Assembly (NCBI GenBank): GCA_964425505.1
Contig: CAYRME010000001.1
Coordinates: 1 to 25,692 of the forward strand
DNA: 25,692 nucleotides
Source of the DNA: an uncultured Candidatus Saccharibacteria bacterium
GTDB taxonomy: Bacteria > Patescibacteriota > Minisyncoccia > Minisyncoccales > PWPS01
Reading direction: 5' to 3'
The notes beneath the pieces were generated by a model. The model saw only the letters and a program-made list of their open reading frames with translations, did no database searches and had not been told where the DNA came from. The position numbers and the translations under genes were made by a program. Positions 2,963 through 21,263 of the stretch are shown here, piece by piece. Position 1 is the stretch's first letter. The number at the start of each line of letters is the position of its first letter.

Positions 2963-3048
2963 GCTGCGGTGGCGGAATTGGTAGACGCGCATGGCTTAGG
3001 ACCATGTGGGGCTTTTGCCTCTTGGGAGTTCGAGTCTCCCCCGCAGCA
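2963..3048 (+). tRNA. tRNA-Leu (anticodon TAG), CCA not encoded
   Basis: Acceptor GCTGCGG/CCGCAGC-A, anticodon arm catgg-ctTAGga-ccatg, long variable arm, T-loop TTCGAGT. Confidence 0.96.
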
Positions 3049-3173
3049 CAATTTCTTAAGGGTTTTTACCATGAACCCTACGTGGTTCATGGCGAGTCCC
3101 TCCCCCGCAACAATTCCTTAAGAGTTTTTACCATGAACCCCACGTGGTTCATGGCGAGTCTCCCCCGCAGCAC
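3031..3173 (+). repeat. Two tandem 62-63 bp units, each with a 9-bp hairpin and a copy of the tRNA-Leu 3' end
   Basis: cgagtctcccccgcagca at 3031-3048 and 3156-3173, variant at 3093-3112; hairpins ccatgaacc-N6-ggttcatgg at 3069-3092 and 3132-3155. Confidence 0.93.
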
Positions 3174-7422: not shown

Positions 7423-7646
7423 TTGAAAAATCAAAAATCAAAATATTAAATAAGTCAAAATGCAAAGTTACTTAATCGCGAAGCGATTACAGTGAGCGAA
7501 GCGAACGGTTTGTAATGACAAGTATTTGTAATTTCCAATTTCCAAGTAATAAATTTCCAAACAAATTTTAATTTCCAATTGTTTAATTTCCAAAACAAGT
7601 TTGGAGTTTGGAAATTAGAATATTTTGGTCTTTGATTTTTGATTTT
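7423..7646 (+). repeat. Repeat family A copy (7514-7646) with a left 7-mer tract and inserted module D (7468-7518)
   Basis: Matches 922-1053 with one extra A and two C-to-T changes; left tract resembles 866-910; the 7468-7518 segment has an inverted relative at 20119-20169. Confidence 0.93.
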
Positions 7647-7660
7647 ATATTTTATATCTC

Positions 7661-7740: not shown

Positions 7741-7815
7741 GGCCCCGTCGTCTAGTCTGGCCTAGGACGCCGGGTTTTCATCCCGGTAACAGGGGTTCAA
7801 ATCCCCTCGGGGTCA
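7741..7815 (+). tRNA. tRNA-Glu (anticodon TTC), CCA not encoded
   Basis: Acceptor GGCCCCG/CGGGGTC-A, anticodon arm ccggg-ttTTCat-cccgg, T arm agggg-ttcaaat-cccct. Confidence 0.95.
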
Positions 7816-7822
7816 CAAATGC

Positions 7823-7855
7823 AAAGAACGGCCTCTTCTGGCCGTTCTTTTGTTT
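7823..7855. terminator. Bidirectional intrinsic terminator
   Basis: Perfect 11-bp stem aaagaacggcc-tcttct-ggccgttcttt plus T run, between convergent tRNA units. Confidence 0.8.
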
Positions 7856-7885
7856 GAAGTATAAGGGAGTCCTGCTCTCCTAAAG

Positions 7886-8164
7886 CGGCGGGAGTAAGGG
7901 AGTAGCACCTGATTGGGGTTCGGATGCTACTCCCTAAATTCGAACCCCTGGGTGTATTTTCACGATCCCGTAAAAGAGCGGTGGGTGCAGGATTCGAACC
8001 TGCAAGGGCTTGCGCCCGGCGGTTTTCAAGACCGCTGCCTTGCCAATTCGGCCAACCCACCGCCCTTTTACGGGATGCGTTACTAAAACCATTCTTGAAT
8101 GCAAGTCTCGTAAAATCCCTTTACGGGACAAGATCGCCCCGTTCGTCCGCTCCGGCATCCCGCC
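7886..8164 (-). pseudogene. Interrupted tRNA-Ser-like gene (outer frame) in three segments
   Basis: 5' half GGCGGGA-TG-CCGGAGCGGACGAACGG-G-GCGAT-CTTG (8164-8129); middle ATCGT...AGGGG-TTCGAAT (7966-7938); 3' end TCCCGCC-G (7893-7886) pairs perfectly with the 5' GGCGGGA. The variable arm and T-stem do not reconstruct cleanly. Confidence 0.7.
7979..8061 (-). tRNA. tRNA-Ser (anticodon TGA), nested in the outer interrupted tRNA
   Basis: Acceptor GGTGGGT/ACCCACC-G, anticodon arm gcggt-ctTGAaa-accgc, variable arm gggc-gcaa-gccc, T arm gcagg-ttcgaat-cctgc. Confidence 0.95.
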
Positions 8165-8175
8165 TAAATTAAATG

Positions 8176-8259
8176 CGGAGGAGGCGGGACTCGAACCCGC
8201 AAGCGGAGAACCGCTACGGATTAGCAATCCGCTGCCTTACCGATTCGGCGCACTCCTCC
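8176..8259 (-). tRNA. tRNA-Ser (anticodon GCT)
   Basis: Acceptor GGAGGAG/CTCCTCC-G, anticodon arm gcgga-ttGCTaa-tccgt, variable arm agcgg-ttct-ccgct, T arm gcggg-ttcgagt-cccgc. Confidence 0.93.
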
Positions 8260-8270
8260 TGTAATTTTTT

Positions 8271-8299
8271 ATTTTACCTTATTCTTCCCACCTTTTCAA
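8271..8299 (-). promoter_or_regulatory. Sigma70-type promoter for the tRNA-Ser cluster
   Basis: Minus strand TTGAAA-17 nt-TAAAAT ending 11 nt before tRNA-Ser(GCT). Confidence 0.6.
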
Positions 8300-8383: not shown

Positions 8384-8456
8384 GCGCCCGTAGCTCAGCG
8401 GATAGAGCGCTTCCCTGCGGAGGAAGAGGTCAGGGGTTCAAATCCTCTCGGGCGCA
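8384..8456 (+). tRNA. tRNA-Arg (anticodon GCG)
   Basis: Acceptor GCGCCCG/CGGGCGC-A, D arm gctcagcggatagagc, anticodon arm cttcc-ctGCGga-ggaag. Confidence 0.94.
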
Positions 8457-8503
8457 CAAATAATTGTCCTTCCACCTCTCCACCCCAAACTCAAAGATCA
8501 AAA

Positions 8504-8647
8504 ATCAAAGACCAAAATATTCTAATTTCCAAGCTCCAAACTTGTTTGGAAATTAAACAATTGGAAATTAAAATTTGTTTGGAAATTTATTACTTGGAAA
8601 TTGGAAATTACAAATACTTGTCATTTTGGCTTTTGCATTTTGCATTT
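8504..8647 (-). repeat. Repeat family A, inverted copy immediately upstream of recG
   Basis: 144/144 reverse complement of 900-1043. Confidence 0.96.
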
Positions 8648-8655
8648 ATATTAAT

Positions 8656-10752
8656 ATGAACTTTTCCACCCCCGTTTCCAAGGTACCGAATGTGGGACCT
8701 GTTTACGAAAAGAGGTTGAAGAAAATAGGGATAAGAACGGTGGGAGATCTTCTCTACCACTTTCCTTCCCATTACGAGGACCTCTCCCGAAAAACTTCCA
8801 TATCCTCCATTTTTCATGATGGCAAATATACTGTTGAAGGAGAGGTGGAGAAGGCGGAATCGGGAAGAACTCCTCGAAGAAGGATCCCTTTTTCGGAGAT
8901 CCTGTTGCGAGATGAGACGGGAGAGATGAAGATAGTTTTCTTTAATCAACCCTATCTTGCAAAGAACTTAAAAGAAGGAGAAAAACTCCTTGTTTCGGGG
9001 AAGGTTTATCATTCCAAGGAAGGCCTGCAATTCATGAACCCTTATTACGAAAAAGTGGAAAAGAATTCCGGCGGGCTTGGAATAATTCCCGTGTACCGTG
9101 AAACGAGAGGAGTGAATTCTAAATGGCTGCGTTCGGTGATAAAACCACTCTTGGAAAACACAACCCCCAGGATCGAAGATACTCTCCCTCTTGAGATCAT
9201 TCAAGAGAAAGAACTTTACTCTCTTTCTAGCGCTTTGAGTGAAATTCACTTTCCTTCTTCAATGAGATCCTTGCAAAAGGCAAAGGAGAGATTTTCTTTC
9301 GAAAGAATTCTTCTTCTTCAGTTGTTCCTCTTAAAGCAAAAAACGAACCTTTCCCGGAAAAAAGGTATCCCCATAGAAGTGGAAATAGAAGAGGTTCGGG
9401 ATCTTGTCTCCGTCCTTCCTTTTGATCTTACTCAGGCCCAAAGAAAAGCTGCTTGGCAGATAGTAAAGGACCTTGAAAAAGAAGTGCCTATGAATAGGCT
9501 CCTTGAAGGGGATGTGGGGTCCGGAAAGACGGTAGTGGCCGTGATAGCTGCTCTCGCGGCGATAAAAAGCGGGTATCAGGTGGCCTTCATGGCTCCCACA
9601 GAAGTTCTTTCCAAGCAACACTTCGATGAAGTGGCGAAACTCCTTTGGAAATTCAAAGCGGACATCGGACTCTTAACGGGAAAGAAGGACAAGATGAGAT
9701 CGCAAAAATTAAAAGGAGATACATTGGAGGTATCAAGGAATAAACTTATCGAAAAGACCCGAAAAGGAGAGGTGGACCTCTTAGTGGGAACTCATGCTCT
9801 TATTCAGGACAAGGTAAAATTCAAGGATCTGGCGCTCGTTATTTTGGATGAACAGCATCGCTTTGGAGTGGAGCAAAGATCAAAATTATGCTTGAAAGAT
9901 GACGATCGCATTCCTCACTTACTTTCCATGACGGCAACTCCTATTCCCAGAACTCTTACACTAACTCTTTACGGGGACCTTGATCTTTCCGTTATAGATG
10001 AAATGCCTCAAGGAAGAAAGAAGACCGTAACTCGTCTTGTTCCTCCTCAAAAAAGAGAAAAAGCTTATGAGTTCATTAAAAAAGAATTGAGAGCGGGCCG
10101 GCAAGCATTCTTTATATGCCCGCGCATCGAGGAATCCGAAAAAGAAGAAGATTCTCCGTGGAAAGGAGTAAAATCGGTGCGAGAAGAAAAAGAGAGACTT
10201 GAAAGAGAGGTGTTTTCGGAATTCCGCGTAGAACTTTTGCACGGAAAAATGAGTTCTACCGAAAAAGAGGGGATCATGAAGAATTTTAGAGACGGGGAGA
10301 TAGATGTCCTTGTCTCCACTTCGGTTGTGGAGGTGGGCGTGGATATCAAGAACGCGAGCGTTATGGTCATCGAGGGAGCGGAGATGTTCGGGTTGTCTCA
10401 GCTTCATCAGTTCCGAGGAAGAGTGGGGAGAGGAGATTTTCAATCCTATTGCTTTCTCTTTACCGATTCAAGGAGCAAGAAGACCAGACAGAGATTAAAA
10501 GCTTTGGTGCAATCTGATAACGGATTCGATCTTGCCGAAAAGGATCTTCAAATACGTGGTCCGGGAGATTTCGTGGGAAAAAGGCAGTGGGGAACCCCGG
10601 ACTTTACTATGGATGCTTTGACTGACAAGGAAATGGTTGAAGATGCAAAGAATACAGCAAAGGATTTTCTTTCAAGGGATCCCGAATTGAATCAATATCC
10701 CATCTTAAAGAGAAGAGTTGCCGCTCTTGAGAAGAAGTTTCACCTGGAGTAG
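8656..10752 (+). CDS. recG: ATP-dependent DNA helicase RecG
   Basis: N-terminal wedge/OB region (DLLYHFPSHYED), EGDVGSGKT, DEQHRFG, MTATPIPR, QLHQFRGRVGRG, DLQIRGPG. True start is the ATG at 8656; the ORF-track extension lies inside repeat A. Confidence 0.96.
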   Translation: MNFSTPVSKVPNVGPVYEKRLKKIGIRTVGDLLYHFPSHYEDLSRKTSISSIFHDGKYTVEGEVEKAESGRTPRRRIPFSEILLRDETGEMKIVFFNQPYLAKNLKEGEKLLVSGKVYHSKEGLQFMNPYYEKVEKNSGGLGIIPVYRETRGVNSKWLRSVIKPLLENTTPRIEDTLPLEIIQEKELYSLSSALSEIHFPSSMRSLQKAKERFSFERILLLQLFLLKQKTNLSRKKGIPIEVEIEEVRDLVSVLPFDLTQAQRKAAWQIVKDLEKEVPMNRLLEGDVGSGKTVVAVIAALAAIKSGYQVAFMAPTEVLSKQHFDEVAKLLWKFKADIGLLTGKKDKMRSQKLKGDTLEVSRNKLIEKTRKGEVDLLVGTHALIQDKVKFKDLALVILDEQHRFGVEQRSKLCLKDDDRIPHLLSMTATPIPRTLTLTLYGDLDLSVIDEMPQGRKKTVTRLVPPQKREKAYEFIKKELRAGRQAFFICPRIEESEKEEDSPWKGVKSVREEKERLEREVFSEFRVELLHGKMSSTEKEGIMKNFRDGEIDVLVSTSVVEVGVDIKNASVMVIEGAEMFGLSQLHQFRGRVGRGDFQSYCFLFTDSRSKKTRQRLKALVQSDNGFDLAEKDLQIRGPGDFVGKRQWGTPDFTMDALTDKEMVEDAKNTAKDFLSRDPELNQYPILKRRVAALEKKFHLE

Positions 10753-20290: not shown

Positions 20291-20701
20291 ATGTTACAAA
20301 AGATAAAGAAAGGCGGTTTCACCCTCATTGAGCTACTTGTCGTTATCGCCATCATCGCTATTCTCGCTACACTCGTTCTCGTAGCATTAGAAGGAGCTCA
20401 AGATCAGGCGGAGGATGCCGATAAACAGGGAGCGATATCTCAAATCAGATCCTTGGCGCAATTGGAGTATTCGGAAGAAGGAAATTATTCCGGCATTGAG
20501 GATCGTGATGAGTTTCCCGAAGACGAAATACACGGTGATGAGGTCCAGGTACTTGTAGATGATACCGACTCCGACTATTTCGTGGCTTATATAGAGAACT
20601 CCGAAGGCAATTATTTCTGTACGGATGATAGTCTGGATGTAGGTGAGGTTGATAATGCACCTGACGATGGAGCCGAAGAATGCCCCACTTTCATGGACTA
20701 A
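20291..20701 (+). CDS. Type IV prepilin 1 (probable major pilin)
   Basis: Basic leader, G|[17 protein letters not shown] cleavage/methylation motif with Glu5, C-terminal Cys pair. Confidence 0.93.
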   Translation: MLQKIKKGGFTLIELLVVIAIIAILATLVLVALEGAQDQAEDADKQGAISQIRSLAQLEYSEEGNYSGIEDRDEFPEDEIHGDEVQVLVDDTDSDYFVAYIENSEGNYFCTDDSLDVGEVDNAPDDGAEECPTFMD

Positions 20702-20852: not shown

Positions 20853-21263
20853 ATGTTACAAAAAATAAAGAAAGGCGGTTTCACCCTCATTGAGCTACTT
20901 GTCGTTATCGCCATCATCGCTATTCTCGCTACACTCGTTCTCGTAGCATTAGAAGGAGCTCAAGATCAGGCGGAGGATGCCGATAAACAGGGAGCGATAT
21001 CTCAAATCAGATCCTTGGCGCAATTGGAGTATTCGGAAGAAGGAAATTATTCCGGCATTGAGGATCGTGATGAGTTTCCCGAAGACGAAATACACGGTGA
21101 TGAGGTCCAGGTACTTGTAGATGATACCGACTCCGACTATTTCGTGGCTTATATAGAGAACTCCGAAGGCAATTATTTCTGTACGGATGATAGTCTGGAT
21201 GTAGGTGAGGTTGATAATGCACCTGACGATGGAGCCGAAGAATGCCCCACTTTCATGGACTAA
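20853..21263 (+). CDS. Type IV prepilin 2, protein identical to prepilin 1
   Basis: Identical translation. Confidence 0.93.
   Translation: MLQKIKKGGFTLIELLVVIAIIAILATLVLVALEGAQDQAEDADKQGAISQIRSLAQLEYSEEGNYSGIEDRDEFPEDEIHGDEVQVLVDDTDSDYFVAYIENSEGNYFCTDDSLDVGEVDNAPDDGAEECPTFMD

What the first reader, a model, noticed from the sequence alone, without database searches (positions are those of the whole stretch)
7886..8164. Russian-doll tRNA: intact tRNA-Ser(TGA) nested in the anticodon loop of another tRNA-Ser-like gene
Seen on the minus strand: a canonical type II tRNA 5' half (8164-8129) stops at C32-T33-T34-G35. A 162-nt insert (8128-7967) follows, containing a complete tRNA-Ser(TGA). Then come the matching anticodon-stem strand ATCGT, a T-loop, and TCCCGCC-G, which pairs 7/7 with the outer 5' end and has the Ser-type G discriminator. 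The outer anticodon starts TG, so it was plausibly the same isoacceptor as the passenger. Inference: an element targeted the anticodon loop of the resident tRNA-Ser and carried a replacement, or both tRNAs are cut from one precursor. Caveat: outer positions 36-38, the variable arm and the T-stem do not reconstruct cleanly, so the outer gene may be dead.
Basis: partly seen in the sequence, partly recalled or inferred. Interest (0 to 1): 0.86.

Follow-up and report, generated by a model that had tools for sequence, protein, structure and literature searches.

The report
Dead tRNA-Ser gene split by its replacement
In this uncultured (CPR/Patescibacteria) bacterium the original tRNA-Ser(UGA) gene was broken in its anticodon loop by a 162-base palindromic insert that carries a working tRNA-Ser(UGA); the outer gene is a scrambled relic, not a second tRNA, so this is a curious gene-replacement scar and not a new splicing system.

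Summary
On the minus strand, 8164-8129 is a genuine tRNA-Ser(UGA) 5' half: 34/36 identical to an intact metagenomic tRNA-Ser(TGA), and 27.8 bits (E about 1e-5) against a model of that tRNA type. It sits where the CPR relative L089 has its resident tRNA-Ser(TGA), just after tRNA-Ser(GCU). A 162-nt insert (8128-7967) holds an intact tRNA-Ser(UGA) (8061-7979; 60 bits Rfam). Downstream lie the co-varying anticodon-stem strand ATCGT, a T-loop, and TCCCGCC-G.

The outer gene is dead. No single excision yields a tRNA. Double excisions yield tRNA shapes, none with a Ser anticodon, because A36-A38 are missing. Its 3' half also carries a 31-nt insert holding an inverted copy of the sequences on either side (19/20 bases; 0/300 shuffles) and an 8-nt tandem duplication.

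The inner tRNA sits on a 22-bp stalk: its acceptor stem plus 15 further base pairs. 108 other tRNAs showed 0-4. The whole tRNA cluster is flanked by an 81-nt perfect inverted repeat.

Best reading: the resident gene was replaced in place, and palindrome-forming rearrangements shaped the locus. No relative shares the arrangement and no second copy of the insert was found. Modest interest.

The parts
8271..8299 (-). Promoter-like site (TTGAAA-17-TAAAAT) upstream of tRNA-Ser(GCU). It is the only minus-strand promoter-like site found ahead of the nested locus.
   Evidence: 10 of 12 consensus matches. No minus-strand site was found between 8164 and 8061.
8176..8259 (-). tRNA-Ser(GCU), first gene of the transcription unit. 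Ortholog of the L089 tRNA-Ser(GCT).
   Evidence: (57.6 bits)
8129..8164 (-). Outer relic, 5' half of a type II tRNA-Ser(UGA): acceptor 5' strand, D-arm, anticodon-stem 5' strand, then C32 U33 U34 G35.
   Evidence: 34/36 identical to the intact L094 tRNA-Ser(TGA). 27.8 bits, E = 1.5e-5 with model R1. Syntenic with the L089 tRNA-Ser(TGA).
8106..8128 (-). Small hairpin TCCCGTAAAGGG/ATTTTACGAGA, flanked by CTTG on both sides. It resembles the stalk arms with no tRNA between them. Its first 9 nt are the left terminal inverted repeat of the insert.
   Evidence: D13, D16, I25
8077..8105 (-). Spacer of the insert. It contains the small palindrome CTTG-CATT-CAAG next to the breakpoint.
   Evidence: direct reading
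8062..8076 (-). 5' arm of the stalk (ATCCCGTAAAAGGGC). It pairs base for base with the 3' trailer and continues the inner acceptor stem. With a one-base bulge the pairing extends to 8080.
   Evidence: I2 and I6 (22 nt, 95% complementary); MFE fold
7979..8061 (-). Inner, intact tRNA-Ser(UGA) with G73 and a 4-bp variable arm closed by GCAA. It is the only UCN-reading tRNA-Ser in the window.
   Evidence: 60.2 bits; 67.2 bits
7965..7978 (-). 3' arm of the stalk (CTCTTTTACGGGAT). Its last 9 nt are the right terminal inverted repeat of the insert. Its last 2 nt overlap the outer anticodon-stem strand.
   Evidence: (I2, I25)
7962..7966 (-). Outer relic, anticodon-stem 3' strand ATCGT. It pairs 5/5 with GCGAT at 8136-8132, including G27-U43.
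7938..7961 (-). Outer relic: shortened, unpaired variable region (GAAAATACACCC), T-stem 5' strand (AGGGG) and T-loop (TTCGAAT).
   Evidence: 21-nt local match to the variable arm and T-arm of the L027 tRNA-Ser(GCT); alignment A2
7907..7937 (-). 31-nt insertion in the outer T-arm: TTA, then a 20-nt inverted copy (7934-7915) of the two sequences that now flank it, then AATCAGGT.
   Evidence: Reverse complement of 7934-7915 equals 7948-7938 joined to 7906-7898 at 19/20 bases. 0 of 300 shuffles show such a split inverted copy.
7894..7906 (-). Outer relic: T-stem 3' strand region present twice (GCTACTCCC then TTAC, an 8-nt tandem duplication). Neither copy pairs with AGGGG.
7886..7893 (-). Outer relic: acceptor 3' strand TCCCGCC, 7/7 with 8164-8158, plus discriminator G.
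   Evidence: last 13 nt are 12/13 identical to the L094 3' end
7823..7850 (.). Perfect 11-bp hairpin (AAAGAACGGCC/GGCCGTTCTTT) between the convergent Ser unit and tRNA-Glu. Probable two-way terminator.
   Evidence: I17. It was not called by the strict terminator scan, so this is an inference.

Best explanation
**What it is.** The outer 'tRNA' is the dead, rearranged remnant of the lineage's resident tRNA-Ser(UGA) gene. The inner tRNA-Ser(UGA) is the working gene that replaced it in place.

**History (inferred).** A 162-nt segment carrying a complete tRNA-Ser(UGA) of a different sequence type entered the resident gene between G35 and position 39, with loss of A36-A38. The locus was then, or at the same time, reshaped by palindrome-forming events. 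I favour replication template switching primed on the tRNAs' own stems. Three outcomes fit this:
- The inner acceptor stem was extended by 15 bp into a 22-bp stalk.
- CCCGTAAA/TTTACGGG now abuts both strands of the outer anticodon stem.
- The outer T-arm received an inverted copy of its own flanks and an 8-nt tandem duplication.

**How it works now (inferred from anatomy).** One transcript runs from the promoter-like site at 8299-8271 to the hairpin at 7850-7823. It passes through tRNA-Ser(GCU), the relic 5' half, the leader, the stalk-borne tRNA-Ser(UGA) and the relic 3' pieces. Only the two intact tRNAs mature. The inner one probably needs the double-stranded stalk to be opened or cut, for example by RNase III, before RNase P and 3' trimming can act. 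The outer pieces are by-products.
For: **Resident status of the outer gene**
- The 5' half is 34/36 identical to L094 and has the same acceptor pair set and G73.
- It occupies the same slot after tRNA-Ser(GCU) as the L089 tRNA-Ser(TGA).
- Model R1 gives 27.8 bits, E = 1.5e-5.

**The outer gene is dead**
- ARAGORN and Rfam do not call it.
- 0 of 595 single-excision constructs are tRNA-like. The 1,722 double-excision calls have no Ser anticodon.
- T-stem strands AGGGG versus GCTAC/CTTAC do not pair.

**The inner gene is functional-looking**
- 60.2 bits with Rfam and 67.2 bits with R1, and it is the sole UCN tRNA-Ser in the window.

**In-place palindrome formation**
- 7934-7915 is the reverse complement (19/20) of its two flanks joined; 0/300 shuffles show this.
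- The stalk's 5' arm continues into ACG(C)AT. That is an inverted copy of the outer gene's own ATCGT, so the arm was copied after the junction existed.
- The 15-bp leader-trailer extension compares with 0-4 bp in 108 other tRNAs.
- An 81-nt perfect inverted repeat flanks the whole cluster, and RecG is inverted relative to all relatives.

**Lineage-specific**
- L002, L027, L029, L089 and L098 have plain tRNA-Ser(GCT)/tRNA-Ser(TGA) pairs.
Against: - Only one organism has the arrangement: identical sequence in two assemblies. There is no variation to test for selection or neutrality.
- Point substitutions in the relic pieces are few. That fits a recent event, but equally fits constraint on the pieces.
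- The donor of the inner tRNA and of the CCCGTAAAAGGG motif is unknown.
- The insert has perfect 9-bp terminal inverted repeats, and an 'empty' hairpin copy lies beside it. A mobile cassette would also explain both.
- Template switching is inferred from sequence signatures, not shown.
- Processing of the stalk by RNase III is conjecture.
Confidence: 0.7

Rival explanations
1. A small non-autonomous mobile cassette (MITE-like, terminal inverted repeats TCCCGTAAA/TTTACGGGA, about 163 nt) carries tRNA-Ser(UGA). It inserted into the anticodon loop of the cognate resident gene, killing it while supplying the replacement.
For: - Perfect 9-bp inverted repeats lie exactly at the insert boundaries (I25).
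- A 23-nt 'empty' hairpin of the same motif, flanked by CTTG...CTTG, lies at the left end.
- The motif is over-represented locally: 9 matches in the window against 2.55 expected, three of them inside the insert.
- The insert and the gene it broke are the same isoacceptor.
Against: - No target-site duplication at the insert boundaries.
- No second copy in the window, in 98 fetched loci, in viral contigs, phages or plasmids, or through a five-frame protein search.
- The stalk arm includes an inverted copy of the host gene's own ATCGT, which points to in-place copying.
- No transposase is known for such ends.
Confidence: 0.15
2. Scar of an integrase-mediated insertion. A phage or island integrated at the anticodon loop of tRNA-Ser(UGA) and was later almost entirely deleted, leaving its tRNA.
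For: Two viral contigs (L019, L022) show a tRNA-Ser(TGA) 5' half that runs to CTTGAAA(A/G)CC and then breaks into phage DNA with repeated arm-like motifs. So this site class is used in nature.
Against: - No integrase or phage gene lies near the locus. The neighbours are TsaD, an aminoacyl-tRNA synthetase and RecG.
- No direct repeat of a tRNA segment, which is the hallmark of att sites, is present.
- Such elements normally carry only a partial tRNA that restores the target, not a complete unrelated tRNA.
- The insert ends are inverted repeats, not direct ones.
Confidence: 0.07
3. A functional nested precursor. The outer RNA is assembled or spliced, after excision of the inner tRNA, into a second working tRNA or a two-piece tRNA.
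For: - 7/7 acceptor pairing with G73, a 5/5 anticodon stem and an intact D-arm and T-loop.
- The whole region folds far better than shuffles (z = -6.9), with the outer ends paired in the MFE structure.
Against: - No excision restores a 7-nt anticodon loop with a Ser anticodon.
- The T-stem is unpaired and interrupted by 31 nt, and the variable arm is unpaired.
- No group I intron or ribozyme family is detected even at E up to 10.
- No bulge-helix-bulge motif is present.
- The layout is not conserved in any relative.
Confidence: 0.03
4. Coincidence or assembly artefact. An orphan 5' half happens to lie near unrelated tRNA-like fragments.
For: tRNA clusters contain many similar short motifs. For example TCCCGCC also occurs in the T-arm of tRNA-Ser(GCU) at 8189-8183.
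Against: - The acceptor 3' strand plus G, the co-varying ATCGT, the T-loop and the order and spacing of the pieces all match one tRNA-Ser(TGA) type.
- An independent assembly has identical sequence over 1,231 nt.
Confidence: 0.03

Closest known systems
Integrative elements (phages, islands) that use a tRNA gene as attachment site, including sites in the anticodon loop
   Same: A resident tRNA gene is broken at or near the anticodon loop and its function is kept by incoming DNA. Two viral contigs fetched here (L019, L022) break tRNA-Ser(TGA) at almost the same place.
   Different: - The insert here is 162 nt with no integrase.
- It brings a complete, differently sequenced tRNA, not a matching half.
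- Its ends are inverted repeats, not direct ones.
- The displaced halves stay adjacent, which gives the nested look.
Group I introns in bacterial tRNA anticodon loops (cyanobacterial tRNA-Leu(UAA), tRNA-fMet; Azoarcus tRNA-Ile) - from my own knowledge
   Same: A long insertion in the anticodon loop of a bacterial tRNA gene.
   Different: - No group I core is detected.
- At 162 nt, half of it a tRNA, the insert is too short.
- No exon junction restores a Ser anticodon loop.
- The 'exon' T-arm is destroyed.
Archaeal split, permuted and multi-intron tRNAs processed at bulge-helix-bulge motifs - from my own knowledge
   Same: tRNA halves separated in the gene and held together by extra helices next to the anticodon stem.
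   Different: - The genome context is bacterial (TsaD, RecG, GyrA, type IV pilus genes).
- There is a single 5-nt bulge on one strand instead of bulge-helix-bulge.
- The outer tRNA body is not intact.
Quasipalindrome / template-switch mutations and inverted duplications at rearrangement breakpoints - from my own knowledge
   Same: - The A - rc(AB) - B signature in the outer T-arm.
- Perfecting and lengthening of a pre-existing stem, from the 7-bp acceptor stem to a 22-bp stalk.
- Nested inverted repeats across the locus.
   Different: These events are usually described as point or short-tract changes in model bacteria. Here they would have acted several times on tRNA stems and accompanied a gene replacement. 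The mechanism is inferred only.
Intervening sequences in bacterial rRNA genes removed by RNase III without re-ligation - from my own knowledge
   Same: A long, nearly perfect helix replaces a hairpin loop of a structured RNA, and a double-strand nuclease is the likely processing enzyme.
   Different: The host RNA here is a tRNA that cannot work in two pieces. The useful product is inside the insert, not around it.

Membership tests
Functional bacterial type II tRNA (tRNA-Ser) - outer gene | Recognised as a tRNA by standard detectors (cloverleaf plus conserved positions) | tested here: not met
ARAGORN and Rfam RF00005 call only the inner gene.
Functional bacterial type II tRNA (tRNA-Ser) - outer gene | 7-nt anticodon loop with a Ser anticodon after removal of the insert | tested here: not met
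   0 of 595 single excisions are tRNA-like. The 1,722 tRNA-shaped double excisions read Val, Asp, Arg, Thr, Lys, Pro or a stop codon (the rest have no 3-nt anticodon), never Ser.
Functional bacterial type II tRNA (tRNA-Ser) - outer gene | Paired T-stem and paired long variable arm | tested here: not met
   AGGGG versus GCTAC/CTTAC do not pair. The T-arm is interrupted by 31 nt, and GAAAATACACCC has no stem.
Functional bacterial type II tRNA (tRNA-Ser) - outer gene | 7-bp acceptor stem with G73, D-arm, anticodon stem | tested here: met
   7/7 acceptor pairs plus G. The D-arm is identical to 64 metagenomic tRNA-Ser(TGA) genes. GCGAT/ATCGT pairs 5/5.
Functional bacterial type II tRNA (tRNA-Ser) - inner gene | Recognised by detectors, UGA anticodon, long variable arm, G73 | tested here: met
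   ARAGORN calls Ser(tga). Rfam gives 60.2 bits and R1 gives 67.2 bits.
Group I intron in a tRNA anticodon loop | Group I catalytic core detectable by covariance model | tested here: not met
   cmscan of 7820-8200 against all Rfam families at E up to 10 gave no intron or ribozyme family.
Group I intron in a tRNA anticodon loop | Splice junctions that restore a working anticodon loop | tested here: not met
   Exhaustive junction scan.
Bulge-helix-bulge intron / split tRNA | Two 3-nt bulges separated by a 4-bp helix at the exon-intron boundaries | tested here: not met
   By inspection there is one 5-nt bulge (CTTGT) on the 5' strand only. The 3' strand is continuous.
Bulge-helix-bulge intron / split tRNA | Splicing endonuclease and ligase encoded by the organism | not testable with these tools
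   Only 25.7 kb of the genome is available.
tRNA-targeting integrative element | Integrase gene beside the interrupted tRNA | tested here: not met
   The insert is 162 nt. The flanking genes are TsaD, an aminoacyl-tRNA synthetase and RecG.
tRNA-targeting integrative element | Direct repeat of a tRNA segment at the two ends (attL/attR) | tested here: not met
   No direct duplicate of either outer half was found.
tRNA-targeting integrative element | Break point in the anticodon loop/stem of the target | tested here: met
   The break follows G35. L019 and L022 break 6-7 nt further on.
MITE-like element with terminal inverted repeats | Terminal inverted repeats at the exact insert ends | tested here: met
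   TCCCGTAAA (8128-8120) and TTTACGGGA (7974-7966), 9/9 (I25).
MITE-like element with terminal inverted repeats | Target-site duplication | tested here: not met
   The flanks are ...ATCTTG and TCGTGA... with no duplication.
MITE-like element with terminal inverted repeats | Multiple copies in the genome or in relatives | tested here: inconclusive
   None in the window, in 98 loci, in viral contigs, phages or plasmids. The rest of the genome could not be searched.
Template-switch inverted duplication | Inserted tract is the reverse complement of the sequences that now flank it | tested here: met
   19/20 bases for 7934-7915 against 7948-7938 joined to 7906-7898; 0/300 shuffles. The stalk's 5' arm against the reverse complement of the 3' arm has one mismatch and one 1-nt bulge over 21-22 nt outside the acceptor stem.

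The most novel reading that the evidence does not exclude
The 162-nt insert is a self-targeting tRNA cassette: a tiny palindromic mobile element that homes into the anticodon loop of the tRNA it encodes, destroys the resident copy and makes the host depend on the element's own copy. A second reading also not excluded: the 22-bp stalk is a selected processing signal, meaning tRNA release from a double-stranded stalk, a maturation route not described for bacterial tRNAs.
Probability: 0.1. Interest if true: 0.85.

Novelty: new variant of a known kind. Interest (0 to 1): 0.4.

Why it matters
It is a clear, datable example of how an essential single-copy tRNA gene can be replaced without loss of function in a streamlined CPR genome. 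The old gene is still legible around the new one.

It also shows tRNA stems apparently acting as seeds for palindrome growth. A 7-bp stem became a 22-bp stalk, and the T-arm received an inverted copy of its own flanks.

Practically, it warns annotators that orphan tRNA halves can flank a live tRNA, and that a tRNA on a long stalk may need unusual processing.

If the insert proved to be mobile, it would be a new class of selfish element that targets its own cognate tRNA.

Tried and rejected
- **Splicing the outer gene in silico.** No tRNA-Ser emerged.
- **Known RNA families.** Rfam at gathering score and at E up to 10 gave only tRNAs and chance-level hits. A partial Deinococcus Y-RNA hit is just the inner T-arm.
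- **Closer relatives.** None exists above 66% TsaD identity in 5.8 billion proteins. Nine syntenic loci were fetched and none is nested.
- **Metagenome scan for the outer 5' half.** It returned 64 loci, all ordinary tRNA-Ser(TGA) genes.
- **Second copies of the cassette.** These searches found nothing beyond tRNA similarity:
  - phages
  - plasmids
  - a viral-contig pattern for the two arms
  - all fetched loci
  - a protein search with five open frames across the cassette, to catch spurious ORFs called over homologous DNA
- **Literature.** Searches for nested tRNAs and CPR tRNA introns gave nothing relevant.
- **Ideas considered and dropped:**
  - tmRNA or two-piece tmRNA: the acceptor identity is wrong and a D-arm is present.
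  - tRNA-Sec: wrong architecture.
  - Integron attC: no core sites.
  - IS200/IS605-type ends: no matching pair of hairpins.
  - Origin of the motif from tRNA-Glu (a 14/16 local match): too weak to use.

Full report
**Context.** The window is a chromosomal piece of an uncultured CPR/Patescibacteria bacterium. It encodes the GyrA C-terminus, a class I aminoacyl-tRNA synthetase, TsaD, RecG and type IV pilus proteins. The best genome relative is labelled Candidatus Nealsonbacteria, at 66% TsaD identity. No closer TsaD exists among 5.8 billion proteins. ARAGORN and Rfam agree on five tRNAs:
- Leu(tag), 2963-3049, plus strand
- Glu(ttc), 7741-7816, plus strand
- Ser(tga), 7978-8061, minus strand
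- Ser(gct), 8175-8259, minus strand
- Arg(gcg), 8384-8457, plus strand

**Checking the observation.**
- 8164-8129 is GGCGGGA TG CCG GAGCGGACGAA CGG G GCGAT CTTG.
- 8128-7967 is a 162-nt insert holding the intact tRNA-Ser(UGA) at 8061-7979.
- After the insert come ATCGT (7966-7962), AGGGG TTCGAAT (7949-7938) and TCCCGCC G (7893-7886).
- A separately assembled ENA contig (L016) is identical over 1,231 nt.

**Is the 5' half a real tRNA piece?**
- An IUPAC pattern of its D-arm plus CTTG hit seven viral contigs. Four are intact tRNA-Ser(TGA) genes. Two are prophage ends where a tRNA-Ser(TGA) 5' half breaks just after the anticodon loop.
- A tighter pattern hit 64 metagenome loci. All are tRNA-Ser(TGA) genes, four of them cut by a contig end.
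- L094 is 34/36 identical over the 5' half and has the same acceptor stem and G73.
- A covariance model of 25 such genes (R1) scores the inner gene at 67.2 bits and tRNA-Ser(GCU) at 42.7 bits. The outer 5' half scores 27.8 bits (E = 1.5e-5). The 3' debris reaches only 4.2 bits.

**Which gene was there first?**
- In L089 the order is Ser(GCT), 15 nt, Ser(TGA), Arg(GCG), RecG. L089 is a CPR relative with 53% RecG identity.
- Its Ser(GCT) shares the acceptor stem and D-arm type of the window's Ser(GCU). Its Ser(TGA) is of the outer type.
- In the window the outer 5' half starts 11 nt after Ser(GCU). The outer gene therefore occupies the resident slot, and the inner gene is the newcomer.
- Closer relatives carry other tRNA-Ser sequence types and no relic. 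These are L027 (66% RecG), L098, L029 and L002. tRNA-Ser genes have evidently been swapped more than once in this clade.
- The inner type also occurs in a phage tRNA array, L095: 39 consecutive identical bases. Its source remains open.

**Is the outer gene alive?** No.
- I made 595 constructs with one deletion around the insert. ARAGORN called none.
- Of 100,800 constructs with a second deletion between the T-loop and the 3' end, 1,722 were tRNA-shaped. Their anticodons were Val, Asp, Arg, Thr, Lys, Pro, a stop codon or malformed (two or four bases), never Ser.
- A36-A38 are simply missing.
- The variable region (GAAAATACACCC) has no stem.
- The T-stem 5' strand AGGGG cannot pair with GCTAC or CTTAC.

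**What happened to the 3' half?**
- The 20 nt at 7934-7915 are the reverse complement, 19/20, of 7948-7938 joined to 7906-7898. Those are the two tracts that now flank it. No shuffle of the region (0/300) shows such a split inverted copy.
- This is the A - rc(AB) - B signature of an inverted duplication inserted at a break.
- Next to it, (C)TACTCCC (T)TACTCCC is an 8-nt tandem duplication.
- Removing both gives TTCGAAT GCTAC TCCCGCC G. That is the right spacing for T-loop, T-stem strand, acceptor strand and discriminator.

**The insert and the stalk.**
- The inner acceptor stem continues without a break into its flanks. 8076-8055 pairs with 7986-7965: 22 bp with one G-T. With one bulged C, three further pairs (ACG/CGT) follow.
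- In 109 distinct tRNAs from the window and all fetched loci, leader-trailer pairing beyond the acceptor stem is 0-4 bp. The inner gene has 15.
- The extra three pairs matter. ACG(C)AT at 8080-8075 is an inverted copy of the outer gene's own anticodon-stem strand ATCGT. At least that part of the arm was therefore copied after the junction existed.
- The insert ends in perfect 9-bp inverted repeats, TCCCGTAAA/TTTACGGGA (I25).
- A 23-nt hairpin of the same motif with nothing in its loop lies at the left end, flanked by CTTG on both sides.
- The whole region folds much better than shuffles (z = -6.9).

**Wider locus.**
- The four-tRNA cluster is bracketed by an inverted repeat. It is perfect over 81 nt (7514-7594 / 8545-8625) and weaker out to 7653 / 8487.
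- Each arm holds an outward-facing promoter-like site.
- RecG is inverted relative to every relative examined. Its true start is about 8656.
- Two Logan contigs stop 130 nt upstream of the TsaD start, at about window position 7543, which is inside one arm of this repeat. That is what a real repeat would cause.
- Three nested layers of inverted repeats in 1.1 kb point to a rearrangement-prone spot.

**Explanation chosen.** The outer gene is a scrambled relic of the resident tRNA-Ser(UGA). The inner gene is its in-place replacement. The palindromes are best explained by template switching seeded on tRNA stems.
- Shown: homology, synteny, the non-functionality of the outer gene, the exceptional stalk and the inverted-duplication signature.
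- Inferred: the order of events, the mechanism of the first insertion and the RNA processing route.
- A single promoter-like site (8299-8271) and a hairpin at 7850-7823 suggest one transcript. Only the two intact tRNAs would mature from it.

**Rivals.**
- A mobile cassette with terminal inverted repeats remains possible (about 0.15). It has the right ends but no target duplication and no second copy anywhere I could look.
- An integrase scar lacks an integrase and direct repeats.
- A functional nested or spliced outer tRNA is contradicted by the excision scan, by the absence of any intron or ribozyme family and by the lack of conservation.

**Verdict.** The exciting readings (splicing, or two tRNAs from one precursor) are not supported. 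It is an unusual but explicable gene-replacement scar. Interest is moderate. It would rise sharply only if the insert is found elsewhere or the stalk proves to be a processing signal.

Noticed in passing
window 7514-7653 and 8487-8625: A roughly 140-nt inverted repeat, perfect over 81 nt (7514-7594 / 8545-8625), brackets the whole tRNA cluster (Glu, relic plus Ser(UGA), Ser(GCU), Arg). It is rich in TTGGAAATT-like motifs. Each arm has an outward promoter-like site facing TsaD or RecG. It could be an invertible segment or the footprint of a recent inversion with duplication.
   Followed up: partly
window 8575-10752: RecG is inverted relative to its orientation in all relatives examined, where RecG and TsaD are co-directional. 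The listed TTG start at 8575 lies inside the inverted repeat. Alignment to relatives puts the real start at the ATG near 8656.
   Followed up: partly
window 20291-20701 and 20853-21263: Two 136-aa pilin-like ORFs (N-terminus ...[17 protein letters not shown]...) are 100% identical tandem copies 562 nt apart. This is another very recent duplication in the same window.
   Followed up: partly
L019 240-420 and L022 1180-1000 (viral contigs): High-GC phage contigs carry a tRNA-Ser(TGA) 5' half that ends at CTTGAAA(A/G)CC. It is followed by repeated GACACG/GAACACGATC motifs, which look like att sites with arm-type repeats. The element seems to carry the 5' part of the tRNA.
   Followed up: no
L098 3350-3040 (minus strand): In a CPR relative both tRNA-Ser genes are followed by the same 25-nt tail (CCATCCTACGCCAAGGC(T)TCGGA). 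tRNA-Ser(TGA) is followed by about three tandem 30-nt repeats of a related unit. Their meaning is unknown.
   Followed up: no
L027 7400-7486, L089 3929-4121, L002/L029/L098 tRNA-Ser genes: tRNA-Ser D-arm types are distributed as a mosaic among related CPR genomes. The outer-type D-arm TGCCGGAGCGGACGAACGGGGC is in Ser(TGA) in L089 but in Ser(GCT) in L027. This suggests repeated exchange or replacement of tRNA-Ser genes in this clade.
   Followed up: partly
window 8189-8158: The relic's 5' acceptor strand GGCGGGA is complementary to the T-stem 3' strand TCCCGCC of the upstream tRNA-Ser(GCU), 18 nt away. In the primary transcript the relic could compete with folding of that tRNA.
   Followed up: no
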